Virus record (IMG/VR): IMGVR_UViG_3300028299_000132
Span: 34,092-98,091 of that record
Source of the DNA: a virus
Reading direction: 5' to 3' (one strand)
DNA length: 64,000 nt
Positions 20,672-54,025 of this stretch are shown here, one piece after another. The position numbers and the translations under genes were made by a program. The notes under the pieces are model-generated. The model saw only the letters and a list, made by a program, of their open reading frames with translations, had not been told where the DNA came from and did not search any database. Positions within the stretch are counted from its first letter, which is position 1. Each line of letters begins with the position of its first letter.

Positions 20672-20881
20672 ATGATAACACTTTCATCGGGATATAGACC
20701 ATTATTTAGAGACTAGATAAATACTTTTTGTTCTAATAATGATATCATAATTACATATAAAAGTAATCTTGGTAATGGTAGATATGATGATTTTTATAAT
20801 TTTTATGGTGATGTACATAATATTGACAAATTGGAAAAATATGTTAATCAACTTGAAGAGAAAAGAAAAAAACAAAAATGA
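20672..20881 (+). CDS. Hypothetical protein with in-frame TAG at 20714-20716
   Basis: MITLSSGYRPLFRD*INTFCSNND...EEKRKKQK; A-rich leader; TGA overlaps next ATG. Confidence 0.7.
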
Positions 20882-21168
20882 ATTTAACACCCTTTGACAC
20901 CGAAAACGAAACAGTATCTTTTAGTGATTATAATGTAAAAAAACTGAAAGATAAACTAACAAAAGAATTATCAAGTTATCCATTTGAAACAGAAAAATCT
21001 ATAAAATCAATAATATCAGATATATGTTATGATTTTGTTGAAAGTAGGAGAATATACGATTACAGAATTTGTACAAATAGTGGTGATGGAATATTAACGA
21101 CTGATGTTTATGTAAGAGAGAAAAAAACTTCTGAGGTATTAGATATAAAAATAAATATAAAAGAATGA
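20878..21168 (+). CDS. Hypothetical protein
   Basis: 96-aa ORF in a coupled operon. Confidence 0.7.
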   Translation: MNLTPFDTENETVSFSDYNVKKLKDKLTKELSSYPFETEKSIKSIISDICYDFVESRRIYDYRICTNSGDGILTTDVYVREKKTSEVLDIKINIKE

Positions 21169-21440
21169 AACACATAACAAGAGAAGAAGCTAAAAATAAT
21201 GTAAAAACAGTTTTGGGTATAAAAGATAAAAGTAGAACCGAAACATATGATAGAATAATGGATGAAATATATGAGTTGATAGAAAAATCATCACTGAGAG
21301 GTTTAGATTTTTGTAGATATTATTTTGATAATGATGAGGAGAAGGAGATTATTGATGATATTATTTTGACTCTAAAAGATGATGGGTTTGGTTATGGAAT
21401 TGATTATAATCTGAAAAAATTAGATGTACGCTGGAAATAA
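21165..21440 (+). CDS. Hypothetical protein
   Basis: 91-aa ORF in a coupled operon. Confidence 0.7.
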   Translation: MKHITREEAKNNVKTVLGIKDKSRTETYDRIMDEIYELIEKSSLRGLDFCRYYFDNDEEKEIIDDIILTLKDDGFGYGIDYNLKKLDVRWK

Positions 21441-21823
21441 TGGATTTTAAAGATATAGTAAATAGTATTTTTATAAATAGGAGTAGATATTCTAAGATTT
21501 CTGATGAAGATAAAGAAAAGAATTTTTTTATTATAAACAGAAAATTTTCAAGAAATTATCCAAAAGTAGCACAATTTTTTAACAATAAATCAATCAATAA
21601 GTGTGACGCGGTGGATCGTTGGTTTATGTTATTTGAAAATGAAAGAAGAATACCTCAATGGTATTGGGGAAATAGAAATAAAAAACAAAAGTCTAATAAT
21701 TTATCAAACAATCAGATATTATTAATGATGGAAAAATTGGAATTACCAGAAAATGATGTTCTATTCTTGAATAAGTACTATAAAGAAGATTTAGATAAAG
21801 AGATAAAAAGATACAAAAATTAA
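21440..21823 (+). CDS. Possible clamp-loader small subunit (T4 gp62-like)
   Basis: EKNFFIINRKFSRNYP..AQFFN resembles the gp62 PFMVNRALS..ANEMN pattern. Confidence 0.45.
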   Translation: MDFKDIVNSIFINRSRYSKISDEDKEKNFFIINRKFSRNYPKVAQFFNNKSINKCDAVDRWFMLFENERRIPQWYWGNRNKKQKSNNLSNNQILLMMEKLELPENDVLFLNKYYKEDLDKEIKRYKN

Positions 21824-22161
21824 TTTATATTTCTTCTAAGTTTTTTAATTTTTTCTGTTGCCCCTAGATTGATTAAATCAATCATTTTTTCTTCTTTTTC
21901 TTTTTTGATATTCATCTCTTCTTCCCATTCTTCATCATCCAATCTAGGTCTTAATAATTTATAATATTTTTCTTTTGGAATTGGTTTAACTTTATTTGAA
22001 CCACAATATTTACAATGGTGTGTTTCTTCATTAAACAGATTATATAACGCGTTACAATCTGGACAATGATAATAGGTTGTTAACACATCTGATGTTGTCA
22101 TTGGTAGATATTCAGTTCCTTTTGGTTGTTCCGCGTATTCGTTAAATCTTTTTAATTTCAT
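21820..22161 (-). CDS. Tagged zinc-ribbon protein
   Basis: MKLKRFNE; CPDC...CKYC. Confidence 0.7.
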   Translation of the reverse strand: MKLKRFNEYAEQPKGTEYLPMTTSDVLTTYYHCPDCNALYNLFNEETHHCKYCGSNKVKPIPKEKYYKLLRPRLDDEEWEEEMNIKKEKEEKMIDLINLGATEKIKKLRRNIN

Positions 22162-22175
22162 ATTTCTTTATTTTT

Positions 22176-23174
22176 TTAATACACATCATCCAACGCCGCC
22201 CAAACTTTGGTTAATTTCTTTTTCAATACTTTTCCAGCGTGTCTTATGTAGTTTTGATATTTTATCATTTCAAATTCTAATTCTTTATCCGATAATAATT
22301 CAAATTCCTTTTGTTTATTTTTATTAACCATTTTTTTAATAAATCCGAATTTTCTTAGTAGTGGTTCATTTTCTGTTATTTCTTTATTGGTTCTTTGTTT
22401 TGTTATAAATTTTAGATATTTAAATAAATAACTAAGAAATTCTTTATCTTCCTGTGTCATATCTAGAAATAATTTATGCATATCAAAATCTTCCATCATG
22501 ATTGCAATATTATAAATATTCCTAGTTCTAAGAGTTTTAACAAAATAATCTCTTTTCCATTTATCTATTAATCTTTTTTGTTCGTCTGTAAATTCACCTT
22601 TTATATTATTCTTTTTTCTGAAGTCATTTATATATTTTTCCATTAATCCTTTTATCTGACCATAAAACTGAACAACATTTGAATTTACCTCAGTATCAGA
22701 CGCTCTATAAAGAAGATATTGAAACATTTGTATATTTCCTTTTTTGAATTCGGTATCGCTATTTAATAGTCTTTCTGATGATCCAGTTATAACATTTCCT
22801 TTCATATCCATTCTTTTACCCAATTTTGTAAACTGTAACGCGTGATTAAGTTCGTGATATATTACACTTTTTTTAAGAGTTCCTAACAATAAATATATTT
22901 CAGAGTTTCCAGATTTGAATTTTTTACTTTTACCCGTATGAAGAGCCGCAAGATTTACTCTACCTTCATCCGCTAATTTTTCATCAACATCTACTGGATC
23001 ATAAACAATAGTTATTTTATTTATATTTAAGTTTCCTGGTATTACATCTCTATGAAATTCATATGTACCTTTACCTTTACCTTGTTTATGTATCATATCT
23101 GATATAAAATCTGATATATCAACAACATCCTGATTTACACCAACTCTTTCATTTAGATAATATAAATATTTCAT
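22176..23174 (-). CDS. Tagged protein with HExxH metalloprotease-like motif
   Basis: Start MKYLYYLNE; IYHELNHA plus downstream TEVNS. Confidence 0.65.
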   Translation of the reverse strand: MKYLYYLNERVGVNQDVVDISDFISDMIHKQGKGKGTYEFHRDVIPGNLNINKITIVYDPVDVDEKLADEGRVNLAALHTGKSKKFKSGNSEIYLLLGTLKKSVIYHELNHALQFTKLGKRMDMKGNVITGSSERLLNSDTEFKKGNIQMFQYLLYRASDTEVNSNVVQFYGQIKGLMEKYINDFRKKNNIKGEFTDEQKRLIDKWKRDYFVKTLRTRNIYNIAIMMEDFDMHKLFLDMTQEDKEFLSYLFKYLKFITKQRTNKEITENEPLLRKFGFIKKMVNKNKQKEFELLSDKELEFEMIKYQNYIRHAGKVLKKKLTKVWAALDDVY

Positions 23175-23292
23175 AACTCTATATATAAAAAAATCATATA
23201 TGATTTTTTTTATTCTAGTTGGAATAAAATCCCCCATTTTTTTAAAACATTATGAATAAATATTCATATAAAAAATAAAAAAATTATACAAA

Positions 23293-23529
23293 ATGGAAAT
23301 ATTAAGACCTCTAGATGTAGAAAAAGTAATACCCGAGAATATTGAAAAGAAAAAGAAATCGGATGAAAAATCAAAAATTGAAACTATTAAACTTATAGAA
23401 ATTAGATTATCCGAATCTATAAAAAAGAAAATTAAGATACCACTATCTAATATAAATAGGAATGTTGTTAGAAATATTGTTAAAGTGTATAGAAAAAATG
23501 GATGGTCTGTAAAATATAGTGATGAATGA
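23293..23529 (+). CDS. Hypothetical protein (C-terminus possibly truncated)
   Basis: 78-aa ORF; frame stays open 18 codons past the TGA. Confidence 0.6.
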   Translation: MEILRPLDVEKVIPENIEKKKKSDEKSKIETIKLIEIRLSESIKKKIKIPLSNINRNVVRNIVKVYRKNGWSVKYSDE

Positions 23530-23601
23530 TCATTTAGATGGATGCTTACATTTAGAACAAAAAGAGGAATATTTAATATTTTTTAAAAAATAAAAAAATA
23601 A

Positions 23602-23725
23602 AATGGGACAATCAATAAAAAAAAGACAATCAAAAAGATATAGTAAAAATCGTTCTAATAAAGTAAAAAATAGAAAATTAATTGAAAATAATATAGAAGT
23701 ATTAAAAAAATTAGAAATAAAATGA
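23602..23725 (+). CDS. Small basic protein (about 40 aa, not in ORF track)
   Basis: MGQSIKKRQSKRYSKNRSNK...LEIK; TGA overlaps next ATG; start approximate. Confidence 0.5.
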
Positions 23726-24696
23726 TTAAATGTGAATTGAGTTTTGATATTACGGATGAAATTGAAATAAATATAAAATGTTTTGATGAATCTGATGTGG
23801 AAAAATTATTTATATTGGAAATATTTGATCTAGATACTAATCTTCGCGTCTTTAATAAGGAGTATTCTATTAAAAAATTTATACATATATGGTGTACATT
23901 AGGCCATGGGATTAAACATTATTATCCATCCTTTCGTGAATTTATTAATGGATACAGAATAAAATTAACCAATTTAGCAACAAATGAAATAGAATTTGAT
24001 GATGTATTATTAACAAAACAATATAGTAGGACGAAGTTTATAGATAAGAACAATTTATTATCCAATAAAGAAGTACAAATGATATATCAAAATTTTATAA
24101 ATTTTTTTAAATTATTAAAAAATAACTGTTTAAATATTAAAGATGATGATATTATTGTTGATCTTGGTAGTTCTATTGGATTATTTACAGCGTACGCATT
24201 GGAACAGAGTCCAAATATAAAATCAATAAATGTTGAAATGAATTCAATATTTCATAATATTTGTTCTGATACATTCAAGGATAATAAAAATATAATTCCA
24301 ATTAATAAAGCGATTTATAAGAATTCAAATGAAACTATTGATATGTATTCGGATGTAGAGAATTTTTCTAGTTTCTCATCTAATATAGTTAATAATAGCA
24401 CATTTGTAAAAAAGATACCAACTATATCTCTAGAAGATATAATAAATAAATACAATTTGGATAGAATATCTTTATTAAAAGTTGATATAGAGGGATATGA
24501 ATATGAATTATTTGAAAATTTAGATGATAACATTTTATCAAAAATAGATAAGATACATCTAGAGTTTCATAAAACAAAAGATAATAATGATAGATTAATT
24601 TTAATAAATAGATTATTAAAATATGGATTTAAGATAAATAATTCTATTGAATCGGATACACTAGATGATAATAATATGTGGAATTTTAATAGGTAA
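23722..24696 (+). CDS. FkbM-family SAM-dependent methyltransferase
   Basis: IVDLGSSIGLFT, INKAI, LLKVDIEGYEYE, IHLEFH. Confidence 0.85.
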   Translation: MIKCELSFDITDEIEINIKCFDESDVEKLFILEIFDLDTNLRVFNKEYSIKKFIHIWCTLGHGIKHYYPSFREFINGYRIKLTNLATNEIEFDDVLLTKQYSRTKFIDKNNLLSNKEVQMIYQNFINFFKLLKNNCLNIKDDDIIVDLGSSIGLFTAYALEQSPNIKSINVEMNSIFHNICSDTFKDNKNIIPINKAIYKNSNETIDMYSDVENFSSFSSNIVNNSTFVKKIPTISLEDIINKYNLDRISLLKVDIEGYEYELFENLDDNILSKIDKIHLEFHKTKDNNDRLILINRLLKYGFKINNSIESDTLDDNNMWNFNR

Positions 24697-24738
24697 TATG
24701 TTCACATTATTTTTTGTAAATAAAAAAAATTAAAAAAA

Positions 24739-25683
24739 ATGAATAAAAATAGCATAATATATGTCGCTGGACATAAGGGAATGGTTGGTAATGAAATATA
24801 TCAAACACTTGTTAATCAAGGATATACAAATATTGTAACAAAATCATTTGAAGAATTGGATTTACGAAAACAAGATTATGTTGAACATTTTTTTATAAAG
24901 GAAAGACTAGAATATGTATTTATCGCGGCGGCGAAAGTTGGTGGTATAATCGCTAATTCAACATATCCCGCAGAATTTTTGTATGATAATATAATGATTC
25001 AGACAAATATAATACATTGTGCGTATAAATATGGGGTTAAAAAGTTGGTTTTCCTTGGATCTAGTTGCATTTACCCAAAGATGTGTCCACAACCAATTAA
25101 AGAAGAATATCTGTTATCAGGATATTTAGAACCAACCAACGACGCGTACGCGATAGCGAAAATTTCTGGTATAATGATGTGTAATAAATATAATAAACAA
25201 TATGGAACAAAATTTATCTCATTAATGCCTACTAATCTATATGGTAGTATTAATGATAATTATGATTTGGAAAAATCTCATGTTCTTCCAGCGATGATTC
25301 GTAAATTTCACGAAGCTAAAAAACAAGATAAACCATTTATGGAATTGTGGGGAACAGGAAGTCCAATGAGAGAGTTTCTTCATGTTCGTGATATGGCGGA
25401 ATCCGCGGTATATTGTATGTTGAATTATGAAGATTACTCTGAACATGTTAATATCGGAACAGGTGTTGATGTAACAATAAAACAAGTCGCTGGAATAGTT
25501 AAAGATATAGTTGGATATGAAGGTGAAATAAGATGGGACACAACAAAACCAGATGGTACACCTAGAAAACTATTAGATGTTTCAAAAATAAATAATATGG
25601 GATGGAAACATACAATAGATATAGAAGATGGTATTAAAATGACTTATAAGGAATTGTTGGAAAAACATAAATTATTTAATTAA
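24739..25683 (+). CDS. fcl: GDP-L-fucose synthase
   Basis: YVAGHKGMVG, AAAKVGGI.AN, FLGSSCIYPK, YAIAKI, PTNLYG, WGTGSPMREFLHV, KPDGTPRKLLDVS. Confidence 0.95.
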   Translation: MNKNSIIYVAGHKGMVGNEIYQTLVNQGYTNIVTKSFEELDLRKQDYVEHFFIKERLEYVFIAAAKVGGIIANSTYPAEFLYDNIMIQTNIIHCAYKYGVKKLVFLGSSCIYPKMCPQPIKEEYLLSGYLEPTNDAYAIAKISGIMMCNKYNKQYGTKFISLMPTNLYGSINDNYDLEKSHVLPAMIRKFHEAKKQDKPFMELWGTGSPMREFLHVRDMAESAVYCMLNYEDYSEHVNIGTGVDVTIKQVAGIVKDIVGYEGEIRWDTTKPDGTPRKLLDVSKINNMGWKHTIDIEDGIKMTYKELLEKHKLFN

Positions 25684-25740
25684 TAATATTCTATTTTTTC
25701 TTTTTTATCAAGAAGATAAAATTTGTTATTTACTTTGAGT

Positions 25741-26796
25741 TCAAAGTTTTATATTTTTTAGTTGTGGATCATATTCATAACTAAAATTATTATCTGCTTC
25801 ATATTTTCTAATCATTCTAATCAATTTTTCTATTTTTGGATAGTTTTTGTATATTATTAAAACTTTATTAAGGTCTTTAGTCTTATTGGGATCAAATCTA
25901 CCTCCTGTGGTTATTTCAGAACTATCCATAGTACTTTTTCTATGGAAGTCTATTATGTAATAGAAATCTGGATCTTTTAATATTTTTCTTATAACTTTTC
26001 TTCCATCATATGTAGATTCCTCATCTACTATTAAATATCCACAATGTTTTATAAACGATTTAAATACTTTATATCCAAATCCAATATTTTTTATCATACT
26101 TGAAAGATGTATAAATCCTTGCATATGTGCAGTAAATCTAATATGACCAAAATGTGACTTTTCATCTCTTTTACTCAAAAAGAAAAACCATTTATTTTTC
26201 TCATTTTCAACTCCAACAGACGAGATTAATCCCAATCTTTCTATTTTATTCTCTAGATTTTTATTTTTCAATTTGAGAAAATATCTTTTATCTCCTGGAT
26301 ACCGCGTCCCTTTTCTTTCTATAAAATAAATATCCTCATCTGATATATTTTTCAGTTTATTAATAACATTATTTATTTCAAATCTTTTTATAAAATTAGG
26401 TTTATGGGTTGATCTTTTAAATATAGCACGATCTTTTATGTTACTTAAGAAAAAATTTGGATTGTCTTTGTACCACTCTTCTGTTATATTTTCTTTAATA
26501 TATTGTATTTTTTCTCTTTCATCTAATAGATAGAATCTATTATCAACTTTTAATTCAAATTCTCCAATTTTATTCTTTTTAACATCTTGTAATATACCCT
26601 CAACATATTTTGACCACCAATCTACTTTAAACCTAACTTGTTTACCTATTAGTTGTTTAAGATTCAGATAGTTTTCTTCATGTTTTAATGACGAATTTGT
26701 AAAAGGATTATCATATTCTAATGTTGTGTATGGTTCATATTCTTCCCAGTCCATATCATCAAAATCAATATCTTCAAATAATTTTATATATCTCAT
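25741..26796 (-). CDS. Tagged protein with C-terminal GNAT-like domain
   Basis: MRYIKLFEDIDFDDMDWEEYEP; KNIGFGYKVFKSFIK..DPDFYY shared with 38362-39072. Confidence 0.7.
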   Translation of the reverse strand: MRYIKLFEDIDFDDMDWEEYEPYTTLEYDNPFTNSSLKHEENYLNLKQLIGKQVRFKVDWWSKYVEGILQDVKKNKIGEFELKVDNRFYLLDEREKIQYIKENITEEWYKDNPNFFLSNIKDRAIFKRSTHKPNFIKRFEINNVINKLKNISDEDIYFIERKGTRYPGDKRYFLKLKNKNLENKIERLGLISSVGVENEKNKWFFFLSKRDEKSHFGHIRFTAHMQGFIHLSSMIKNIGFGYKVFKSFIKHCGYLIVDEESTYDGRKVIRKILKDPDFYYIIDFHRKSTMDSSEITTGGRFDPNKTKDLNKVLIIYKNYPKIEKLIRMIRKYEADNNFSYEYDPQLKNIKL

Positions 26797-26807
26797 AGAG
26801 ATATATA

Positions 26808-27320
26808 TTAAAAATACATTATGTATTTTTCATCAAAATGTGTTTTATTCTCGTCTAGAACTTTATAGAAATTAGTTGGATTATTTTCTTGTGAATTTTT
26901 AATCATCATTTCTAATGATTCTTTACTAACATCAATATCACATTTAATTGATTCAAATATATCTTTTATAACATCTATTTTTTCAACAATATTCTCAATT
27001 GAATGATTATTACCTATATTTATTATGTATTCTGTACTAAAATAATCTTCATATTCATAATAATCATATTTTTCAAGTAAATAATTATATTCATATGGAA
27101 CTAGATTTTCATCTTTGGAAAATATTTCTATTATATCACCATTTCTTTTTCCTCTATAGACATAAATACTGTTTAATTCAACTATGTTATCAATATTTTT
27201 GTGTTCCCATTTATTCCCCCACACTTCTGTTAATCTTTTTTTTAATAATTCAGGAAATTCTCTACTGCTTATAGTATCCGTTTCTGGATAAACACTAATT
27301 ATTAAATAATAACTCTCCAT
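26808..27320 (-). CDS. Hypothetical protein
   Basis: 170-aa ORF. Confidence 0.65.
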   Translation of the reverse strand: MESYYLIISVYPETDTISSREFPELLKKRLTEVWGNKWEHKNIDNIVELNSIYVYRGKRNGDIIEIFSKDENLVPYEYNYLLEKYDYYEYEDYFSTEYIINIGNNHSIENIVEKIDVIKDIFESIKCDIDVSKESLEMMIKNSQENNPTNFYKVLDENKTHFDEKYIMYF

Positions 27321-27325
27321 TTTAT

Positions 27326-38397: not shown

Positions 38398-39072
38398 ACT
38401 CAAAATATATATTTATTTAGTTCTTTGTCATAAATGTACTCTGTGTTCTCTTTTTTCTCCCTCTCTTTTACTAATTTAAGTAATTGTTTTATATTTTCAT
38501 ATCCCTTGTATATAATTATTATTTTTGAACCTTTATCATATGTGGATGAATCATCCATAGAACCTTTATTTATAATATGATAATAATCAGGATCTTGTAT
38601 TAATTTATGATAAACTTTTTTCGCACTATTACTTACTTGTGTGTTACTAGTTATAAAACCAATCTGTTTTTATAAATGATTTATATACTTTATATCCAAG
38701 CCCAATATTTACCAATGGATATTCTAACCCATTTATCATATGGAAACGATTTCCAATTTTTCCTCCAAATAAACTACTTTCCATTTGACCCTCATTCGTA
38801 AGAGCAAATACTATTCTATGTCCTTTTTGGGATATAGAATATAACTCATCTAATTTCTCATCTTTGAAATATAATTCATAATCTTTTGACTTTTCAGAAT
38901 CTTTTTTAAAATACATATCATCTATTGTAACTCTTAAAAATTTATTCGCGATATCTTTTTGTTTTATATCATCTATATCAAAAAATTCACGATTATTTAC
39001 GTTATTGTTATAGTAAAATATTTTAGCTTTTTTATTCTTTTTTATTTTTATTAATTTTAAAATATTTGACAT
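38362..39072 (-). pseudogene. GNAT-like paralog of 25741-26796, frameshifted in an A-run at about 38668
   Basis: GLGYKVYKSFIK continues in a shifted frame as QIGFITSNTQVSNSAKKVYHKLIQDPDYY. Confidence 0.7.
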
Positions 39073-44069: not shown

Positions 44070-44768
44070 TTAATATCCTGAATATCTTTCTTCAAAATCT
44101 ATATAATTATTCTTATCATTTTCTCTTCTTAATCTTTCCATTTCCATATCAAATCTAGTTGGTGGTAGTTTTCTTCTTCTTTCCATCTCTTTTTCAATAT
44201 CATCTAACGCTTTTCTAATTCTTTTTCTTTCTGATTCACGCTCTTTTTTTGATTTCCAGAGCCAATTTTCAAATGTTTTGAAAGACTCATCCATTTCCCA
44301 TTCAAAACCACCATCCTCATTATCTTCCTTTTCTTCTTCTTGGGGTTTTATTTTTTTATTAGCGACGTGTCCTTTTAATTTATTTGTAATTTTCCATTTT
44401 GATCCACCCCTTTTAACTTCTAAACTACCTAAATTATATTCATATAATAATTCATTTATCCCATCAATAACTTCTAACCAATCATCAAAATCTGTATGTC
44501 CTACCATACTTATCGCTTCAGCGAGTTCTGAAATTTTAATCCCCAATTCATCATAATCTCTTTTATTTAATCTATTTATAATTTTAAGACATTTTTTAAT
44601 ACTATCTCTGAAAGAATAATAATTTTTATTAGTCATATTATTCACTACTACAAAGTATTTTTTATTCACATCCTCTAAACACTCATCAAGATATCTAACC
44701 AATCTTTCTGTTGATGCGAATGAAATTCCTTCGTTTAAATTAATATCTTCAAATTTTAGCGCTTTCAT
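44070..44768 (-). CDS. Tagged hypothetical protein (C-terminus probably extends to about 43935 via indels)
   Basis: MKALKFEDINLNE; internal MDESFKTFEN; acidic sequence continues in shifted frames. Confidence 0.65.
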   Translation of the reverse strand: MKALKFEDINLNEGISFASTERLVRYLDECLEDVNKKYFVVVNNMTNKNYYSFRDSIKKCLKIINRLNKRDYDELGIKISELAEAISMVGHTDFDDWLEVIDGINELLYEYNLGSLEVKRGGSKWKITNKLKGHVANKKIKPQEEEKEDNEDGGFEWEMDESFKTFENWLWKSKKERESERKRIRKALDDIEKEMERRRKLPPTRFDMEMERLRRENDKNNYIDFEERYSGY

Positions 44769-46663: not shown

Positions 46664-46695
46664 CAAAGATACGAATAATTTAATTGTTGTACAAA
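46664..46695 (-). promoter_or_regulatory. Bacteroidota sigmaA-type promoter
   Basis: TTTG-N20-TATCTTTG. Confidence 0.75.
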
Positions 46696-46696
46696 T

Positions 46697-47080: not shown

Positions 47081-47222
47081 CGCCTTTTATAAAACTTTCT
47101 ATTATTGTTCTATTCTCAAGTTCGTAGTTAAGTGGAAGTTTATGTAATCTGATATACCAATTCACAAAATCAATTACTGTATCTTCATTCCATTCAAAAC
47201 TATTAACTTTCTTTTCTTCCAT
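47037..47222 (-). CDS. Small hypothetical protein
   Basis: FEWNEDTVIDFVNWY. Confidence 0.6.
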   Translation of the reverse strand: MEEKKVNSFEWNEDTVIDFVNWYIRLHKLPLNYELENRTIIESFIKGDDYKKWYGDNKTHI

Positions 47223-47279
47223 ATTATTAAATTTTATTTATGATAATTCCAAGACATATCATAATATGGTGATAGTTTA

Positions 47280-47441
47280 TCATTTGTATTCAACAAAATC
47301 TTTTCTTTTAAATATTTTTTTATACCAGGGTAGTGCATTCCATCGGTGTACTTTTGCCTAGTGTTCAGTTAAGTCATTTAATGTTTCTCTAGCTAGTTCA
47401 GCTACTTCTTTTCGCCTTTCAATTTCGTTTATATTTTCCAT
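47280..47441 (-). CDS. Small protein with in-frame TAG at 47358-47360
   Basis: MENINEIERRKEVAELARETLNDLTEH*AKVHRWNALPWYKKIFKRKDFVEYK; fills the operon gap. Confidence 0.7.
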
Positions 47442-47446
47442 ATTTT

Positions 47447-48514
47447 TTAAATTTTAATGTATTTAAATTCGTGTTGGTATTCAATTTTCTTTAAAACTTC
47501 AAAGATTAAATCTTCAGTTTTTTTAATATCTTCAATATCAACAGTTTCCACTGTTGTGTGCATATATTTCAAAGGAAGTGATATCAAACAAGATGGAACT
47601 CCACCTACGGAGTACGCGAAAGAATCAGTGTCGGTTCCTGTTGAACGACTACAAACTTTTCTTTGAAAATCAATCTTTTGTTTTGTTGCGACTCCCTCAA
47701 CCAATTCAAGGAGTTTTTGTTGAATCGGTGCACCATATGTTAAAACTGGTCCTTTACCGCAACGAATATCACCATTTTTCATTTTTTCCATCATTGGTGT
47801 TGTTGTATCGTGTGTTACATCAAGAATTAACGCTGCGTTTGGACGAATTGTTTCCACAATCATTCTAGAACCTCTAAGTCCAACTTCTTCTTGTACCGCG
47901 TTAACAACATATAAACCAAATGGTAATTTCACTCCTTCTTCTCTTAGTCGTTTAACAACCTGTGTTAGAATATAACCACCCATTTTGTTGTCTAATGCAC
48001 GACCAGTATAGAATTTATTATTCATTTTTGTTAATTCATCTGGATATGTGACTAAACACCCAACATAAATTCCTGATGATTCAACATCCTTTTTTGATGT
48101 AAATCCACAGTCAATAAAGATATTATCCGCGGATGCGTGAGTTTCTTTGGTACCAGTACCTCTTGTATGAATCGCTGGCCAGCCAAAGAATCCAGGTATT
48201 AGTCCATTTTTAGTATGGATATTAACTCTTTTAGATGGTGCTATTTGATGATCTGCTCCACCATTTTTTTTCACATAGATATATCCTTTATCTGTTATAT
48301 AACTAACAATAAATGATATTTCATCAACATGTGCTTCAATTACTACTTTAAAATCAGAATCTGGATTAATTATACCAACTGCGGTTCCATAATGGTCGGT
48401 TATAAATTTATCAACATAATCCTTCATATAATTTACCCAAATTTGTTGGGATTCATTTTCATATCCACTTGGGGATAGACTGTTTAGATAAAGTTCTAAA
48501 AATTTTTTACTCAT
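47447..48514 (-). CDS. M42-family aminopeptidase
   Basis: SPSGYE, EAHVDEI, RALDNKMG, VQEEVGLRG, LDVTH, GTDTD, YMHTTVE. Confidence 0.92.
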   Translation of the reverse strand: MSKKFLELYLNSLSPSGYENESQQIWVNYMKDYVDKFITDHYGTAVGIINPDSDFKVVIEAHVDEISFIVSYITDKGYIYVKKNGGADHQIAPSKRVNIHTKNGLIPGFFGWPAIHTRGTGTKETHASADNIFIDCGFTSKKDVESSGIYVGCLVTYPDELTKMNNKFYTGRALDNKMGGYILTQVVKRLREEGVKLPFGLYVVNAVQEEVGLRGSRMIVETIRPNAALILDVTHDTTTPMMEKMKNGDIRCGKGPVLTYGAPIQQKLLELVEGVATKQKIDFQRKVCSRSTGTDTDSFAYSVGGVPSCLISLPLKYMHTTVETVDIEDIKKTEDLIFEVLKKIEYQHEFKYIKI

Positions 48515-48707
48515 AATTACTGTTTATATTAAATAATGTGTTAAAAAAATGCATCATCATAATCATTCCAGATATAATAACCAAGAATAATTGCCATCCA
48601 ACTGGTTCAATACCATATAATGAATAAACCATTGATAGATAAAGACAATATCCAGACCCTAAAAACACCAAGAGATTAAGAAAGAATTGTGAAAATTTCG
48701 CTCTCAT
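48507..48707 (-). CDS. Small membrane protein
   Basis: Two TM segments. Confidence 0.6.
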   Translation of the reverse strand: MRAKFSQFFLNLLVFLGSGYCLYLSMVYSLYGIEPVGWQLFLVIISGMIMMMHFFNTLFNINSNYE

Positions 48708-48925
48708 TGGTCTCTAGATTTTAAAATTTTTAATATTATTCCCATTCCTGTACCACAAGATAACATCATTATTACAGCGAAAGTTTTGATATTGAATTTG
48801 TAGATAGTTAATTCTGGTTGATATGGGATTATATCCAAAAAAGATAAACATGCAAGAAAATAAAATAGGAACAAAAAACCATATCCAATTAAAAATTCAG
48901 AATTAATATCTTTTATGTATCTCAT
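48704..48925 (-). CDS. Small membrane protein
   Basis: Start at MRYIKD, downstream of the tRNA; two TM segments. Confidence 0.6.
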   Translation of the reverse strand: MRYIKDINSEFLIGYGFLFLFYFLACLSFLDIIPYQPELTIYKFNIKTFAVIMMLSCGTGMGIILKILKSRDQ

Positions 48926-48942
48926 TATTATTTGATTATCAG

Positions 48943-49017
48943 TGAGTTGAGTGGGATTTGAACCCACGACAAAGTGTTTTAGGGGCACTTGTTCTAACCA
49001 GACTGAACTATCAACTC
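48943..49017 (-). tRNA. tRNA with CUA anticodon (amber suppressor)
   Basis: GAGTTGA/TCAACTC acceptor, GTTC/GAAC D stem with GG, AGTGC-CCCTAAA-ACACT anticodon arm, GTGGG-TTCAAAT-CCCAC T arm, A73, no encoded CCA. Confidence 0.9.
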
Positions 49018-49028
49018 ATTATTTTATT

Positions 49029-49036
49029 CAAAGATA
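49029..49036 (-). promoter_or_regulatory. Bacteroidota -7 promoter element for the tRNA
   Basis: TATCTTTG ending 11 nt upstream of tRNA G1. Confidence 0.65.
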
Positions 49037-49072
49037 TAAAAAATTTTTAATATAAAAAAATTTTTTATAAAA

Positions 49073-49102
49073 ATAACAGGGGTATTTTTATACCCCTGTT
49101 AT
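49073..49102 (-). terminator. Intrinsic terminator upstream of the tRNA promoter
   Basis: ataacaggggta-tttt-tacccctgttat hairpin followed by T-run on the minus strand. Confidence 0.8.
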
Positions 49103-49110
49103 AGATATTA

Positions 49111-49570
49111 TTATATACTCTTAGATAAGAAATATTTCAAGTCCTTTTCTTTATAAAAATTACCTTTTAATCTTTTGTAAATGTCCAAAGAACTTTCCAT
49201 TTTATCTCTAGATTCCAAAAAGTTTTTCTTCGCTTTCTGAATCAATTCCTCTTGTTGAGATATCTTAATATGAACCCTTTATCGGATTTTAAGATATACT
49301 TATAAAGAATGTGAAAAAACTTATTAAATGATTTCAAAGAACGATTGTGCTCAACATTTAGAATACAGTTTCTTAGTTTTTTTTCTGATTTAGTGATAAA
49401 TTTACTAATTTTTCATAACAATTATCAATTTCTGATAAATCACTTGTTATCCTGTAATCCATTAATTCTGAAACTCTTTTTATTTTTTCAGTGGTTTCTT
49501 TTACTGATTTTTCTAGATTTCTTGTATCTAGACTAAAATTTACTTTATTTAATTTTTCCATTGTTTCCAT
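49111..49570 (-). pseudogene. Hypothetical protein broken by two indels
   Basis: METMEKLNK..LSLNQKK continues as LRNCILNVEHNRSLK.. and VHIKISQQEELIQKAKK.. in other frames. Confidence 0.55.
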
Positions 49571-49754
49571 TTTATTTTTTTTTAATTGTTTATAATTTAA
49601 TTTTTAATTTTTTGGTAAAACAATGGTTCTCATGGGGGTCTAACCTATGGCATATCTTCCTCCTTTCTGATTTTTAATTTAATTATTCCTATTATATCTT
49701 GGGTAAATGGATCATTAAACATTCCTGATACCATAAACTCACCATATTTTTTAT

Positions 49755-51130
49755 AAAAATGTCAAAAGAAAACCACGATGTCTTTAGCATCGTGGATGAA
49801 TTTTGACGAACATCATTCAAATTATTTTTGGAAAAATATGACTTTTTCATTTTAATATATATTTATAATAAAGAAAACGAAAAAAGTTGTATAAAATGAA
49901 AAAGAGTTATTCTATAAGACTATTTCCGATTAAAGAACAGATAAGTCAATTAAATGAATTATCTGAAATAAGGAAAGATATATGGAATAAACTCATTGAT
50001 GTTCAACAAAAAGAATATGAAACAAACAAAACTATATTAAACAAATTCGATTTGAATAATTTACTTCCAGAATTAAAAGAACAATATATAAATTGGAAAA
50101 AATTAAATTCAAAAGCCGTTCAAACTATTGCCACAGAAATATACGGTTCATATCGTTCATTTTTCAATTTAATTAAAAAAGATAAAACGGCAAGACCACC
50201 AAGAAAGATAGATTCTGACTATTATCATACTATCGTTTGGAATCAGTCTGGTTGGATTATTCAGAGTAATATAATAACAATTAATAAGATTCCATTTGAA
50301 TATAAATCAAAAATAGATATATCAACATTAGATATAAAAGAAATCAAAATTAAATTTGTAAGAAATAAATGGTTATGTGATTTGATTGTTGAAGAACCAA
50401 TACAATATGAAGATAATCTAAAAATTAAGACTAAAGTTTTAGCAATCGATTTGGGTTTAGAAAAATTAGCAGTAGGTGTTGATAACAAAGGTAAAATGAT
50501 TGTATTGAAGAATAAATCAAAGAAAATAAATGATTATTATCAAAAAGAAATAGCAAAAATACAAAACAAAAGAAGTAAAACCAATAAAGGTTCAAAAAGA
50601 AATTTAAAATTAAAGAAAGTATTAAATAAATGTTACCATAAAAAGAACGAACAGATAAAACAAACTCTACATATTCAGAGTAAATATTTAGTGAATATGA
50701 ACTACAACACAATTGTAGTCGGTGATTTAAGTGTTAAAAATTTAATGAATAGTGAAGGTGTTAATAAAAACAAAAAAGGTATTAGAAAATCTTTTCACAA
50801 ATCTAATATTAATATGTTTTTACAATTTCTTGGTTATAAATGTCAGTTAAAAAACACAAACCTAACCAAGATAAATGAAAATTGGACTACTCAATTAAAT
50901 TGTTTAACTGGAAAGGTATTCAAAGAAAAAATTGAACTTAAAGATAGACAAGTTCAATTATCAGATACAATCACTATTGATCGTGACTTAAATTCAGCCA
51001 TAAACATTCTTAAACGATGGTTTGATAGTCATATTGCTTCTATGAACGAGCCACTTAATATTTTAAGTGTTCTTGATAGATACAACATCTATAAGGAAAC
51101 TACGACATCTTTAGTGTCGTAGTAGTTCAT
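49755..51130 (+). mobile_element. IS200/IS605-family tnpB-only element
   Basis: Inserted 3' of TTTAT; left-end hairpin ccacgatg-tctttag-catcgtgg; right end actacgacatctttagtgtcgtagtagttcat; no target duplication. Confidence 0.9.
49896..51122 (+). CDS. tnpB: TnpB-family protein with atypical RuvC-II and degenerate Zn finger
   Basis: AIDLG, IVVGDL (no Glu), INENWTTQ, DRDLNSAINI. Confidence 0.85.
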   Translation: MKKSYSIRLFPIKEQISQLNELSEIRKDIWNKLIDVQQKEYETNKTILNKFDLNNLLPELKEQYINWKKLNSKAVQTIATEIYGSYRSFFNLIKKDKTARPPRKIDSDYYHTIVWNQSGWIIQSNIITINKIPFEYKSKIDISTLDIKEIKIKFVRNKWLCDLIVEEPIQYEDNLKIKTKVLAIDLGLEKLAVGVDNKGKMIVLKNKSKKINDYYQKEIAKIQNKRSKTNKGSKRNLKLKKVLNKCYHKKNEQIKQTLHIQSKYLVNMNYNTIVVGDLSVKNLMNSEGVNKNKKGIRKSFHKSNINMFLQFLGYKCQLKNTNLTKINENWTTQLNCLTGKVFKEKIELKDRQVQLSDTITIDRDLNSAINILKRWFDSHIASMNEPLNILSVLDRYNIYKETTTSLVS

Positions 51131-51361
51131 TAGATACGAAATAATAACTTGACTCATTCAAATTATTTTCTAGTGAGAATCCAAATCTATAATCTGGAAA
51201 AATCCATTCTATTAGTAAACTACCATCTTCTAAAGCGTTTATACATAACGGTTTATCACTATTAGCATCAAAATTCTTTTCAAAAAATTGAGTGAAATGA
51301 TTTATAGATTCTCTATACATTTCATTTTCAATGAAATCGTTTATATTTTTAAATGTCCTAT

Positions 51362-51557
51362 TCATAATTTTTCTATTTCTTTAGTTTTTATTTCTCTTAT
51401 CTTTTCTATGATGAATTCCATTTCATCACATACCAAGTCTATTTCTCTAGTTTGTTTGAATCTTTGACCTGATTTGACTTGACATTCAACCAAAAATTTA
51501 AGATTCCATCTATTATCCTCTAACATTTTCTCTAATTGAATTATTCTCTTATTCATA
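51362..51557 (-). CDS. Small hypothetical protein
   Basis: Probable start MNKRIIQL (approximate) in a coupled operon. Confidence 0.5.
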
Positions 51558-51740
51558 ATAATCTTTTTTAAATTCTTCATATAATTCAAATATTTTATCT
51601 GGATCATACGTATTATTTTCTTTGTCTAGTAATCTAACCATCCATTGGGCTGTTGGTATTACTTCATTTTGATGCCCACTATCATAAAATGGGTACATTG
51701 CGATAAAAAATCCGAAATCTATCAATTCTTGTTTATTCAT
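51549..51740 (-). CDS. Small hypothetical protein
   Basis: 63-aa ORF in the operon. Confidence 0.6.
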   Translation of the reverse strand: MNKQELIDFGFFIAMYPFYDSGHQNEVIPTAQWMVRLLDKENNTYDPDKIFELYEEFKKDYYE

Positions 51741-51990
51741 AATTGTTCTCCTTTCTTAATTTATTATTTTCTTGTTTAATTGACCAATATTTACCTTTCC
51801 AAAATTCCATTTCATCACGATATCTATTCAATTTCTTTTTTAATCTTGATTCTCTTTCAGACCATTTGTTTTCTCTTTCTAACCATAATTCATAATACTG
51901 ATGTAATTGTTTTATAGCTTCTTCTTTGTCTATTTTAGAACATCTTGGGCTATGCCCGTGATATGATTCACATTCTTTACATTTTTCCAT
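51733..51990 (-). CDS. Small protein with CxxC/H..C motif and coiled coil
   Basis: CKECESYHGHSPRC. Confidence 0.6.
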   Translation of the reverse strand: MEKCKECESYHGHSPRCSKIDKEEAIKQLHQYYELWLERENKWSERESRLKKKLNRYRDEMEFWKGKYWSIKQENNKLRKENNYE

Positions 51991-51992
51991 AA

Positions 51993-52331
51993 TTATTTCT
52001 CCTTTTCTGTATAATTAAAATATTTTTCATTTCCTTTATATTCTTCTTTAACCGCTCTTCCATAGATAGTTCTAGTCCATCCATTTTGGTATCCGTGATT
52101 GTTAGCGATTAAATATCCTCGTTTGTCACTTTTTTGTGTGATTAAATGGCAATCAATATATCTCCCTCTCACCTTACAGAAGACCATATCTCCTATATCA
52201 TAAGAATCTTGTTTAACGAATGTCATTAATCCACCATTGTTTAGGGTTGGTTTCATTGAGTTACCAAAACATTTCATTTTTCCTTTTTTATTTTCGTCTA
52301 ATTCATTAATTAGTCTTTCGTACTTATTCAT
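51993..52331 (-). CDS. S24/S26 peptidase-like protein
   Basis: GNSMKPTLNNG, IGDMVFCKVRGRYIDCHLI, IYGR. Confidence 0.65.
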   Translation of the reverse strand: MNKYERLINELDENKKGKMKCFGNSMKPTLNNGGLMTFVKQDSYDIGDMVFCKVRGRYIDCHLITQKSDKRGYLIANNHGYQNGWTRTIYGRAVKEEYKGNEKYFNYTEKEK

Positions 52332-52660
52332 TTTGTTAAGTTTAAATTTTTAGTTAATTCTTTACTTTTTTCTCCTGGTTCTATTGTAACAGAAGTATAT
52401 TGGTTTATATCTGGTTCATAAAAAATAGACATACGAATATCATTTTCAATTAGTTTTTTTACAAACATAATGAATTCGTCATAATCCTTTACAGATAAAT
52501 AAATTAAATATTTTGATTTTTCATTCCAATGGTTGGCTATTTCAGGGTGTTCATATTGGAATTGGATAGCGGAATGTGCAGATTGCACCGCTTGATAAGT
52601 TGTTGATTTTAAATCACTTCTAGTGATTACTCTTAATTTGTTGTCTCTAATCTAGGTCAT
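52328..52660 (-). CDS. Peptidyl-tRNA hydrolase (PTH2-like) with TAG at codon 3
   Basis: ATG ACC TAG ATT AGA...KLRVITRSDL...YQAVQSAHSA...LIYLSV...FYEPDI.QYTSVTIEP. Confidence 0.75.
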
Positions 52661-52664
52661 TTTT

Positions 52665-52895
52665 TTATTTCTTTTTTGTTATTGGTTTTAAGTGTGTAAA
52701 ATTCAATTCTTTATTTAAATCAATTCCATACCCTTTCATTTTTCTGAACATCATTTCCGATAATGTTTCATTTCCAAGTTCTAATGAATTAGTATCATAT
52801 AGTTTTAGTGAATCTAAAATTGATAATAAACAATCAAGTAAATCTTGTTCTTTACCTTTATTTTGTTTCTCACCTGTTTCCATTTTATTTTCCAT
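52665..52895 (-). CDS. Hypothetical protein, first gene of the PTH operon
   Basis: 76-aa ORF right after the promoter. Confidence 0.6.
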   Translation of the reverse strand: MENKMETGEKQNKGKEQDLLDCLLSILDSLKLYDTNSLELGNETLSEMMFRKMKGYGIDLNKELNFTHLKPITKKK

Positions 52896-52908
52896 TTTTT
52901 TATTAATA

Positions 52909-52940
52909 CAAATATACGAACATTTTTTTAATTGTACAAA
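52909..52940 (-). promoter_or_regulatory. Bacteroidota sigmaA-type promoter
   Basis: TTTG-N20-TATATTTG. Confidence 0.75.
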
Positions 52941-52959
52941 TTATTTATGATTTTTAGGC

Positions 52960-53036
52960 GTTTTTCATTTTATTATATATGATTCTTCTTCCCGTGGCGT
53001 AGAAACTACTACATCTTCAGTGTAGTAGTAGTTCAT
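52960..53036 (+). mobile_element. Minimal IS605 remnant (promoter-like stub plus right-end hairpin)
   Basis: gaaactactacatcttcagtgtagtagtagttcat; preceded by tttttcattttattatata resembling the leader of the 49896 tnpB. Confidence 0.75.
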
Positions 53037-53266
53037 TTTCTAAACCCTTTTACAATAACTCTGTTTTTTGGTTCATTATTATATTCAGATTCTAAGATAA
53101 TGTTTTTGAATTTTTTATCATCAATTTTTAAATCATTCAATTTGAAATGCTTAATTCTACGACCAAAAAGATAAATACTTTCTTCAAATATAATTCTACC
53201 TGTTGGTTTAAATCCAATTCCACGAACTGGAGTGAATTCTGTTACTTTTTCATAAATATTTTTCAT
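53033..53266 (-). CDS. Hypothetical protein; stop codon supplied by the IS end
   Basis: 77-aa ORF; TGA lies within TCAT; promoter TTTG-N19-TATCTTTG at 53298-53328. Confidence 0.6.
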   Translation of the reverse strand: MKNIYEKVTEFTPVRGIGFKPTGRIIFEESIYLFGRRIKHFKLNDLKIDDKKFKNIILESEYNNEPKNRVIVKGFRK

Positions 53267-53423
53267 AATGGAATAGATTTTAAAGTTATCACTAATACAA
53301 AGATACGAAAAATTTTTATCTTTTCAAAATATTTTGGAAATTTTATATGATTGATAATCAAATGATTATAAGTAATTTTATGTGGTTAAATTTAATAGAT
53401 TTAGACTGAATTAAAATATCACA

Positions 53424-53711
53424 TCATAGTATTTCCCCACCATTTTCCTTATTCTTTCTAATGAAATCTATACCATTACTATTGGTTATTTCGTAGTCAT
53501 CTAGATTAACTTTTTGTCCATCAATAACCCCAGTATTATCTTCAATATCTGTAACCACTTTATAACCAATCATTCTCATTCTTCTAATAGTGTTAGCTTT
53601 TAAATTATCTGGTTCTGTTTTCTCAGAATTTATTATTCTATCAGACCAATTTTTGAATATTTGTTTTTGGTCACTTTCATTTATAAACTTATTAAAATCT
53701 TTCAATTTCAT
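53424..53711 (-). CDS. Tagged hypothetical protein
   Basis: MKLKDFNKFINE. Confidence 0.7.
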   Translation of the reverse strand: MKLKDFNKFINESDQKQIFKNWSDRIINSEKTEPDNLKANTIRRMRMIGYKVVTDIEDNTGVIDGQKVNLDDYEITNSNGIDFIRKNKENGGEIL

Positions 53712-54025
53712 ATTTCTCTTGGTTTTTTAGAAATCCAATTCCCATTTTTATCTATCCTTTTCATAAAGTTATCTCGCATCTCCTTTTCTCTTTTTGATAT
53801 CTCATCTTTATATACTTTAGATAATTTCATATATTTTTCATATTCTTCTGGTGTTTTAGCTTTATTAGCCTAGTATTCGTAATCAGCTACTATTTCTCCC
53901 AAATGTCGTGTTGATACATTTTTTATATCAATTCCTTTAATATCTTCCGCTTTTATCATTTTGTGTTTTAATTTTGGAGATCTAATCTCATTTATAAAGT
54001 TTTTATAATCTTTTAAAGTTTTCAT
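53708..54025 (-). CDS. Tagged protein with in-frame TAG at 53870-53872
   Basis: MKTLKDYKNFINE...VADYEY*ANKAKTPEEYEK...KKPREI; ATGA overlaps on both sides. Confidence 0.75.

What the first reader, a model, noticed from the sequence alone, without database searches (positions are those of the whole stretch)
20672..54025. Sparse amber read-through system: four clean genes each with a single in-frame TAG, plus a CUA suppressor tRNA
Seen: four unannotated gaps become well-fitting genes if one TAG is read as sense: 20672-20881 (+, GAC TAG ATA), 47280-47441 (-, CAC TAG GCA), 52328-52660 (-, ACC TAG ATT) and 53708-54025 (-, TAC TAG GCT). Several have ATGA overlaps with their neighbours. Almost all other genes I checked end in TAA/TGA, and a tRNA-CUA lies at 48943-49017. 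Known: Lak and some crAss-like phages recode TAG to Gln (code 15), but there TAG is common in genes. Inference: this phage shows incipient or conditional amber suppression that gates a few genes. Gln is compatible with all four positions but unproven.
Basis: partly seen in the sequence, partly recalled or inferred. Interest (0 to 1): 0.88.

Follow-up and report, generated by a model that had tools for sequence, protein, structure and literature searches.

The report
Suppressor tRNA with amber-gated phage genes
A fragment of a giant phage that otherwise uses the normal genetic code carries its own UAG-reading tRNA and two to four small genes that need UAG read-through to be made in full. One of them, a peptidyl-tRNA-hydrolase-like gene, keeps that early UAG in all 52 diverged phage relatives I checked, nearly always beside such a tRNA.

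Summary

The contig uses the standard code (coding density 0.930 under code 11, 0.935 under code 15). TAG is a rare but real stop.

Support for the four genes differs:
- **PTH2-like gene (52328-52660-, TAG at codon 3):** real. In 52 of 52 IMG/VR relatives (39 distinct proteins, 35-95% identical) the gene reads ATG, 1-6 codons, then TAG. It is never TAA, TGA or CAR. A same-strand tRNA(CUA) lies within 1.6 kb in 47 of 52.
- **53708-54025(-):** real. A 65%-identical homologue runs unbroken across the TAG site, with Arg there.
- **20672-20881 and 47280-47441:** supported only by ORF shape and coding bias.

The module also occurs in a complete 405-kb standard-code phage and in the cultured Tenacibaculum phage pT24. 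The TAG in the PTH2-like gene is therefore old and conserved, not incipient.

Gln is unproven. The Q seen in database homologues is probably a code-15 translation of TAG.

No experiment bears on any of this. Raw reads could not be checked. This scan has already found the same module on other DNA, in at least 186 genomes. I found no paper describing it.

The parts
48943..49017 (-). tRNA with anticodon CUA (amber suppressor). It has C33 instead of U33, a C31-A39 mismatch, A73 and a short variable loop. No CCA is encoded.
   Evidence: ARAGORN; Rfam RF00005, 61.1 bits, full length; sequence read. The C33 variant recurs in 3 other of the 39 distinct tRNA(CUA) genes listed (from loci L050, L053, L058).
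49073..49102 (-). Terminator-like 13-bp hairpin just upstream of the tRNA. A TATCTTTG element lies at 49029-49036(-), between the hairpin and the tRNA.
   Evidence: These are consensus matches only. TANNTTTG is not enriched in the window (122 found, 119 expected).
52328..52660 (-). c3: PTH2-like (peptidyl-tRNA hydrolase 2 fold) gene, ATG ACC TAG ATT..., with TAG at 52652-52654 (codon 3).
   Evidence: Pfam PF01981, 27.4 bits against a cut-off of 23, aligned from residue 8. AlphaFold pLDDT 93.9. Foldseek top hits are all PTH2, with 3erj at TM 0.83. A profile search of the PDB gives 2zv3 at E=1e-9. 52 of 52 relatives keep ATG, 1-6 codons, then TAG.
53708..54025 (-). c4: 105-codon gene of unknown function with TAG at 53870-53872 (codon 52). 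It has ATGA overlaps with both neighbours.
   Evidence: Coding LLR is 0.53 upstream and 0.62 downstream of the TAG. It was the only convincing TAG hit in the two-sided coding scan; the other, at 44204, was marginal and not followed up. The homologue in L004 is 65% identical over 101 aa (E=6e-46), runs unbroken across the site with Arg there, and has no Met at the window's downstream ATG.
20672..20881 (+). c1: candidate 69-codon gene with TAG at 20714-20716 (codon 15). It ends in an ATGA overlap with the gene at 20878. It lies beside the 5' end of a TnpB gene.
   Evidence: The 54 codons downstream of the TAG have coding LLR 0.48 and no canonical start until 39 codons after the TAG. The 14 upstream codons score 0.21, which is ambiguous. 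No homologues were found.
47280..47441 (-). c2: candidate 53-codon gene with TAG at 47358-47360 (codon 28). It ends TGA TAA.
   Evidence: Coding LLR is 0.66 upstream and 0.28 downstream, the latter borderline. The opposite strand is also open with one TAG. No homologues were found. The single metagenome hit is a chance 8-mer in an unrelated high-GC protein.

Best explanation
This is a standard-code giant-phage fragment with a gene-specific amber read-through system. The phage makes its own UAG-decoding tRNA. A small set of phage genes carries one in-frame UAG each, so their full-length products are made only when that tRNA outcompetes host release factor 1.

The conserved core is a two-part module: the tRNA(CUA) plus a PTH2-like gene whose second to seventh codon after the ATG is UAG (codon 3 here). 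The amount of PTH2-like protein would therefore report how well UAG is being suppressed. c4 is a second client. c1 and c2 are possible further clients.

Shown by sequence:
- The tRNA gene.
- The in-frame TAGs.
- Homology across the TAG in c3 and c4.
- The invariance of TAG in c3 and its linkage to tRNA(CUA) across phages.
- Standard-code status of this contig and of a complete relative.

Inferred:
- That the tRNA is expressed and charged.
- Which amino acid it inserts.
- That read-through happens.
- What the PTH2-like protein does.
For: 1. The tRNA(CUA) is real.
2. For c3, the first beta-strand of the PTH2 fold (residues 9-14, high pLDDT) lies upstream of the first canonical start after the TAG. 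That start is the GTG used by code-11 gene calls, which give an 86-aa product.
3. In 52 of 52 IMG/VR loci the homologue reads ATG, 1-6 sense codons, then TAG. The codon before the TAG varies (14 different codons). Only 1 of 52 has a canonical start between the TAG and the first strand.
4. A tRNA(CUA) lies in the flank of 47 of 52 loci and on the same strand in 46 of 47. It sits 40-192 nt upstream or 19-1537 nt downstream.
5. The same layout occurs in the cultured Tenacibaculum phage pT24 (ATG AAA TAG ATA). One of its four tRNAs is CUA, about 2.5 kb upstream.
6. c4 has a continuous homologue and coding bias on both sides of the TAG. The 51-aa code-11 fragment ending at this TAG is on 4 contigs from JGI, ENA and Logan, so different assemblers agree.
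7. Random nonsense mutations would give TAG only 21-24% of the time with this codon usage. Four of four would be about 0.002-0.003.
8. The contig is standard code. The complete 405-kb relative G001 is too: density 0.934 against 0.941, 38 TAG stops, and a tail-sheath homologue with no internal stops.
Against: - Nothing is experimental. Expression, charging and read-through are all untested.
- The tRNA here is atypical (C33, and a C-A mismatch closing the anticodon stem).
- Here it lies 3.3 kb from the PTH2-like gene, with a TnpB gene in between. Relatives have it within 1.6 kb.
- TAG still ends about 6 genes here and about 38 in G001, so an efficient suppressor would extend those proteins. The extensions here are 0-10 codons.
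- In mycobacteriophages Catera and Myrna the codon after the TAG is GTG with a well-spaced Shine-Dalgarno sequence, so no read-through is needed there.
- c1 and c2 have no comparative support, and ORF geometry alone does not separate TAG from TGA or TAA controls.
- Raw reads could not be inspected.
Confidence: 0.65

Rival explanations
1. Start-stop leader. ATG-x-TAG is a tiny upstream ORF. The PTH2-like protein is initiated independently, or by re-initiation, at the codon right after the TAG (ATT here). No suppression is involved and the neighbouring tRNA(CUA) is unrelated. This applies to c3 and perhaps c1.
For: ATT, a known weak bacterial start, follows the TAG in 25 of 39 distinct homologues. 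In Catera and Myrna the next codon is GTG with a Shine-Dalgarno sequence 7 nt upstream, and GenBank annotates that start.
Against: A leader ORF could end in any stop, yet TAG is used in 52 of 52 while TAA is about 74% of stops in these genomes. The codon after the TAG is not a plausible start (GTT, GTA, ACT, ACA, ACG, AAC, CTT) in 13 of 39. The tRNA(CUA) is linked in 47 of 52 loci. It does not explain c4, where the TAG is mid-gene and the homologue is continuous.
Confidence: 0.15
2. Early-region view of a fully recoded (code 15) phage. The contig is about 12% of a giant genome whose unseen late genes are densely TAG-recoded. The four genes would then be the fringe of ordinary TAG-to-Gln recoding.
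For: CheckV completeness is 12%. Recoded phages keep replication genes in the standard code (bioRxiv 10.1101/2021.08.26.457843). The 735-kb phage LR756501 has two in-frame stops in its PTH2-like gene and two tRNA(CUA) genes.
Against: The complete 405-kb relative G001 carries the module and is standard code throughout, with 38 TAG stops. The tail-sheath-like gene on this contig (1268 aa, a late gene) has no TAG. In a recoded phage a conserved Gln would drift among CAA, CAG and TAG, but the site is TAG in 52 of 52.
Confidence: 0.1
3. Broken genes or artefacts. The TAGs are recent nonsense mutations, sequencing errors or, for c1 and c2, chance ORFs in non-coding gaps. The tRNA(CUA) serves another purpose, for example as a decoy against host anticodon nucleases.
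For: c1 and c2 have no homologues. c2's downstream half has borderline coding bias and its antisense frame is equally open. Reads could not be checked.
Against: c3's TAG is conserved across phages. c4's TAG-terminated fragment is on 4 contigs from 3 sources. No comparable mid-gene TAA or TGA break without a nearby restart was found in coding sequence. Four of four TAG is unlikely under a mutational spectrum.
Confidence: 0.1

Closest known systems
Stop-codon-recoded phages with suppressor tRNAs (TAG read as Gln, code 15: crAss-like, Lak, Garnet, Topaz; bioRxiv 10.1101/2021.08.26.457843; PMC9523058)
   Same: A phage-encoded tRNA(CUA) in a low-GC phage of a standard-code host. TAG is depleted as a stop. 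The idea that read-through times or gates gene expression is shared.
   Different: In those phages 26-71% of genes carry in-frame stops and code-11 gene calls are fragmented. Here at most 4 of about 145 ORFs do, and code 15 adds 0.5% coding density. The gated gene is a translation-related PTH2-like gene at a fixed early codon, not structural or lysis genes. That preprint does not mention a hydrolase (0 occurrences).
Jumbo phage XacN1 and its orphan amber suppressor tRNAs (PMC5852040)
   Same: A standard-code jumbo phage with tRNA(CUA) genes and a peptidyl-tRNA hydrolase gene. A partial match between this window's tRNA and an XacN1 tRNA-Sup was seen.
   Different: The authors read through the 18 annotated TAG stops, found nothing and reported no target genes. 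Here the targets are proposed to be genes with internal, mostly early, TAGs. I did not inspect XacN1's own PTH2-like gene.
prfB (RF2) autoregulation through an in-frame UGA (established knowledge, not tested here)
   Same: A translation-factor gene carries an early in-frame stop, so its own expression senses how efficiently that stop is decoded.
   Different: prfB is rescued by +1 frameshifting and senses RF2. Here rescue would be by a suppressor tRNA in the same frame, and a feedback role for the product is only a hypothesis.
Peptidyl-tRNA hydrolase 2 (PF01981; PDB 3erj, 2zv3, 1xty, 1q7s)
   Same: Same fold (TM 0.74-0.83) and significant sequence-profile matches.
   Different: This is a phage clade that lives in tRNA islands. 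The Lys of the PTH2 GK motif is not conserved in the alignment, so the substrate and activity are open.

Membership tests
Peptidyl-tRNA hydrolase 2 (PF01981) | Sequence match above the curated Pfam cut-off | tested here: met
   27.4 bits against 23, covering profile positions 2-114 of 115. A profile of 15 homologues hits PDB PTH2 chains at E=1e-9 to 1e-4.
Peptidyl-tRNA hydrolase 2 (PF01981) | PTH2 alpha/beta fold | tested here: met
   AlphaFold model pLDDT 93.9, pTM 0.87. Foldseek ranks 1-13 are all PTH2 or Bit1.
Peptidyl-tRNA hydrolase 2 (PF01981) | Catalytic residues (Lys of the G-K motif, then Asp and Thr; residue roles recalled from the literature, not checked here) | tested here: inconclusive
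   In the HMMER alignment to 2zv3 the GK Lys aligns to a variable column (Tyr in the window protein). An acidic E-P-D motif and a Thr are nearly invariant. No activity data exist.
Code-15 (TAG to Gln) recoded phage | Phage-encoded suppressor tRNA(CUA) | tested here: met
Code-15 (TAG to Gln) recoded phage | A large share of genes with in-frame TAG, and code-11 gene calls fragmented | tested here: not met
   Coding density is 0.930 under code 11 and 0.935 under code 15, with 145 ORFs in both. At most 4 ORFs have an internal TAG.
Code-15 (TAG to Gln) recoded phage | In-frame TAG aligns with Gln in homologues | tested here: inconclusive
   Q aligns with the TAG of c3 in 9 of 14 database homologues. 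But full-length Q forms occur only on short contigs, including for L045 and L060 whose DNA has TAG, so they are probably code-15 translations. c4's homologue has Arg.
Canonical elongator tRNA | Cloverleaf with a 7-nt anticodon loop, U33 and a 5-bp anticodon stem | tested here: not met
   The cloverleaf scores 61 bits, but position 33 is C and the 31-39 pair is C-A. Most related tRNA(CUA) genes have the usual CUCUAAA loop.
Amber-gated PTH2-like gene plus tRNA(CUA) module (seen earlier in this scan; not found in the literature searched) | PTH2-like gene with an in-frame TAG within the first 8 codons and no canonical start before the first strand | tested here: met
   The same holds in 52 of 52 relatives.
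Amber-gated PTH2-like gene plus tRNA(CUA) module (seen earlier in this scan; not found in the literature searched) | Same-strand tRNA(CUA) close by (within 1.6 kb in relatives) | tested here: inconclusive
   Same strand, but 3.3 kb downstream. A TnpB gene (49887-51122) flanked by a 16-nt direct repeat lies between them. pT24 has a similar spacing of about 2.5 kb.

The most novel reading that the evidence does not exclude
The early UAG is the sensor of a self-regulating circuit. The PTH2-like enzyme is made in proportion to suppression by the phage tRNA(CUA). It then acts on that same process, for example by recycling peptidyl-tRNA that drops off at UAG or by hydrolysing the suppressor's own acyl- or peptidyl-tRNA. 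This would let a standard-code giant phage hold amber read-through at a tolerable level and use it as a timer for a few client genes such as c4. It would be a tRNA-based analogue of RF2 autoregulation, and would explain why standard-code jumbo phages carry 'orphan' suppressor tRNAs.
Probability: 0.2. Interest if true: 0.85.

Novelty: new variant of a known kind. Interest (0 to 1): 0.72.

Why it matters
Suppressor tRNAs in standard-code jumbo phages have had no known targets; the XacN1 paper says so explicitly (PMC5852040). This window and its relatives point to a concrete, conserved target: a PTH2-like gene locked by an early UAG, next to the tRNA that can unlock it.

If read-through is confirmed, it would show that phages use stop-codon suppression as a narrow, gene-specific switch and not only as genome-wide recoding. 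It would give a plausible intermediate on the path to code 15.

It would also correct gene calls. The gene is truncated at its 5' end in code-11 gene calls on long metagenome contigs, and its annotated start in pT24 lies inside the domain. The module is testable in pT24 with Tenacibaculum.

Tried and rejected
- **CAG alleles.** I first took the exact Q forms of c1 and c3 in the protein collection as evidence for CAG alleles. I rejected this. Read-through forms of true TAG-terminated genes are absent. But Q forms of L045 and L060, whose DNA has TAG, exist only on contigs of 4.6 kb or less, while long contigs carry truncated calls. That fits code-15 gene calling on short contigs.
- **Homologue searches.** c4, c1 and c2 returned nothing, or only c1's own Q form, in the protein database. 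Scans of viral contigs for c1 and c2 found nothing. The metagenome scan for c2 gave one chance 8-mer hit. An exact-pattern metagenome scan for c3 found nothing.
- **IS ends beside c1.** The two TnpB proteins are only 26% identical, so the element's ends could not be mapped.
- **tRNA identity.** BLAST against phage and E. coli collections gave only weak hits to tRNA-Ile and tRNA-Sup. A resemblance of related tRNA(CUA) genes to tRNA-Trp is from memory only and is not used.
- **Release factor.** No RF-1 domain is present on the contig. Aminoacyl-tRNA synthetases were not searched.
- **Crude read-through scan.** It is noisy in the 405-kb relative.
- **Host-type promoter motif.** TANNTTTG is not enriched.
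- **Close relatives.** Megablast of 12 kb against GenBank phages found none.

Full report
**What the window is.** The window is bases 34092-98091 of a single 98,091-bp IMG/VR virus contig with 26% GC. The contig is linear and CheckV rates it about 12% complete. Its genes include a split family-B DNA polymerase, homing endonucleases, an SSB, a tail-sheath-like protein and two TnpB genes. The relatives found through an M42 peptidase are 119-289-kb phage contigs. It is therefore a fragment of a giant phage.

**Checking the observation.** All four frames contain exactly one in-frame TAG at the stated places. A tRNA with anticodon CUA lies at 48943-49017(-). It scores 61 bits against Rfam tRNA and is the only tRNA on the contig. 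It has C33 and a C31-A39 mismatch. A strong hairpin terminator sits just upstream.

The genome is not recoded. Greedy ORF sets cover 0.930 of the contig under code 11 and 0.935 under code 15, with 145 ORFs each. TAG ends 6 of 128 confident ORFs, against 33 for TGA and 89 for TAA. Read-through of those TAG stops would add 0-10 codons.

As a control I asked how often a single TGA or TAA, read as sense, also yields a gap-filling ORF. It does so about as often as TAG.

**c4 (53708-54025-).** Codon-usage log-likelihood is clearly coding on both sides of the TAG (0.53 and 0.62). Wrong-frame open segments reach 0.23 at their 95th percentile. It was the only convincing TAG hit in a two-sided scan; the only other TAG hit, at 44204, was marginal and was not followed up. 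It bridges two ATGA overlaps.

An IMG/VR contig (L004) encodes a homologue that is 65% identical over 101 residues (E=6e-46). That homologue is continuous across the site, has Arg at the TAG position, and lacks a Met where the window has a downstream ATG. The 51-aa fragment ending at this TAG is on four contigs from JGI, ENA and Logan, so independent assemblers agree on the TAG.

**c3 (52328-52660-).** This is a PTH2-like protein by three lines of evidence:
- Pfam: 27.4 bits against a cut-off of 23.
- A PDB profile search: 2zv3 at E=1e-9.
- AlphaFold pLDDT 93.9, with Foldseek top hits all PTH2 and TM up to 0.83.

The first strand (residues 9-14) lies upstream of the first canonical start after the TAG. 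Code-11 gene calls use that start and give a truncated 86-aa product. A full HMMER search found 652 homologues. Many begin M-x-Q-I-N...K-L-x-V-x-T-R, with Q opposite the TAG.

The decisive result came from DNA. A scan of IMG/VR returned 53 loci. In all 52 with a recognisable first strand the gene reads ATG, 1-6 sense codons, then TAG. The stop is never TAA or TGA and never a Gln codon. These are 39 distinct proteins, 35-95% identical (median 51%). The codon before the TAG takes 14 different forms. Only one locus has a canonical start between the TAG and the strand.

A tRNA(CUA) lies in the flank of 47 of the 52 loci, on the same strand in 46 of 47. It sits 40-192 nt upstream or 19-1537 nt downstream. 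Three of the five loci without one end close to the gene.

**Are these phages simply recoded?** I fetched 400 kb of one complete carrier, G001 (405 kb, with terminal repeats). Coding density is 0.934 under code 11 and 0.941 under code 15. TAG ends 38 ORFs. It has 39 tRNAs and a tmRNA. Its tail-sheath homologue has no internal stop. The module therefore lives in standard-code giant phages.

The same layout is present in other records:
- The cultured Tenacibaculum phage pT24 reads ATG AAA TAG ATA. One of its four tRNAs is CUA, about 2.5 kb upstream.
- The 735-kb phage LR756501 has two tRNA(CUA) genes downstream of its PTH2-like gene.
- Mycobacteriophages Catera and Myrna read ATG TAG GTG and GTG TAG GTG. 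There the GTG after the TAG has a well-spaced Shine-Dalgarno sequence and is the annotated start.

**c1 and c2.** c1's 54 codons after the TAG look coding (0.48). They lack a canonical start until 39 codons in and end in an ATGA overlap. The 14 upstream codons are ambiguous. c2 has a coding-like first half (0.66) and a borderline second half (0.28), and its antisense frame is equally open. Neither has a homologue. I rate c1 about 0.6 and c2 about 0.45 as real read-through genes.

**Which amino acid?** This is unknown. I first took the exact Q forms of c1 and c3 in the protein collection as evidence for CAG alleles. However, Q forms of L045 and L060, whose DNA has TAG, also exist. They occur only on short contigs, while long contigs carry truncated calls. 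The Q is therefore most likely a code-15 translation. The tRNA(CUA) genes do not resemble the phage tRNA-Gln(UUG) genes in the same loci. c4's homologue has Arg.

**Mechanism.** Best reading (0.65): the phage tRNA decodes UAG in a few phage genes. The early UAG makes PTH2-like expression depend on suppression. What the enzyme then does is inference.

The main rival is a start-stop leader with initiation at the next codon. It fits the mycobacteriophages and the frequent ATT. It fails on three counts:
- the exclusive use of TAG,
- non-start codons after the TAG in 13 of 39 homologues,
- the linkage to tRNA(CUA).

Random nonsense mutation would yield TAG only 21-24% of the time, so pseudogenes are unlikely for all four.

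**Known or new?** Code-15 phages with suppressor tRNAs are well described (PMC9523058), but they recode 26-71% of genes, and that preprint never mentions a hydrolase. The XacN1 paper reports CUA suppressor tRNAs with no identifiable targets. Four full-text searches found no description of an amber-gated PTH2-like gene. This scan has noted the same module before on other DNA, in at least 186 genomes. I reached it independently before reading those notes, and they agree.

**Limits.** There is no experimental evidence. The contig is a small part of its genome.

Noticed in passing
window 49813-51169: The TnpB gene 49887-51122(+) ends TAG TAG. It is bracketed by an exact 16-nt direct repeat (TCATTCAAATTATTTT at 49813-49828 and 51154-51169). 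It sits between the tRNA(CUA) and the PTH2-like gene and may be an insertion that pushed the two apart, possibly splitting a minus-strand gene (49692-49850 and 51111-51365).
   Followed up: partly
L005 and L006, 5977-6667: In two giant phages (230 and 461 kb) a 40%-identical PTH2-like gene has no early stop (MMQSQPTMKMYVLV). It is followed 290 nt later by a tRNA with anticodon UUA (ochre), with a tmRNA 5 kb upstream. L056 also has a tRNA(UUA), but its PTH2-like gene has TAG.
   Followed up: partly
L084 (Catera) 2471-2479 and 3102-3175; L085 (Myrna) 2471-2479 and 2963-3034: Cluster C mycobacteriophages have ATG TAG GTG or GTG TAG GTG at the start of their annotated peptidyl-tRNA hydrolase gene. 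An odd tRNA-like gene lies 130-250 nt downstream. ARAGORN reads it as CUA but GenBank labels it Arg or Ser. Neither reaches the Rfam tRNA threshold, and the anticodon-loop register is ambiguous.
   Followed up: partly
L086 (LR756501.1, 735 kb) 3001-3327 and 5436-5589: The largest published phage genome has two in-frame stops in its PTH2-like gene (MS*IYKL... and ...EFP*IYEQW). Two tandem tRNA(CUA) genes lie 2.1 kb downstream.
   Followed up: no
L081 3342-3665(-) (G001 343342-343665): The complete 405-kb relative has a second early-TAG frame: a radical-SAM-like ORF (Pfam 34 bits, profile position 1 at residue 9) with TAG at codon 4, before its CxxxCxxC motif. At 108 aa it is short for the domain and may be a fragment.
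   Followed up: partly
L087 (pT24, NC_049383.1) 2447-3400: GenBank starts CDS gp293 at locus position 2582, inside the PTH2 domain. The frame from ATG 2447 through the TAG adds about 45 residues that include the first strand. In pT24 the PTH2-like domain is the N-terminus of a protein of about 300 aa.
   Followed up: partly
window 48975-48981 (anticodon loop); L050, L053, L058: The C33 variant of the anticodon loop (CCCUAAA instead of CUCUAAA) recurs in 4 of the 39 distinct tRNA(CUA) sequences, this window's tRNA included. It is a recurring variant, not a defect of this copy.
   Followed up: partly
L004 5048-5647: In the relative, the c4 homologue is the C-terminal half of a 199-aa ORF. The N-terminal half weakly resembles a gene from the first 34 kb of this contig, not c4's upstream neighbour, so gene order and fusion state differ between the two phages.
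   Followed up: no
window 38647-38652 and 51120-51125: Two of the few TAG-terminated genes have an immediate second stop (TAG TAA and TAG TAG). That would limit read-through if the suppressor is active, but the numbers are too small to test.
   Followed up: no
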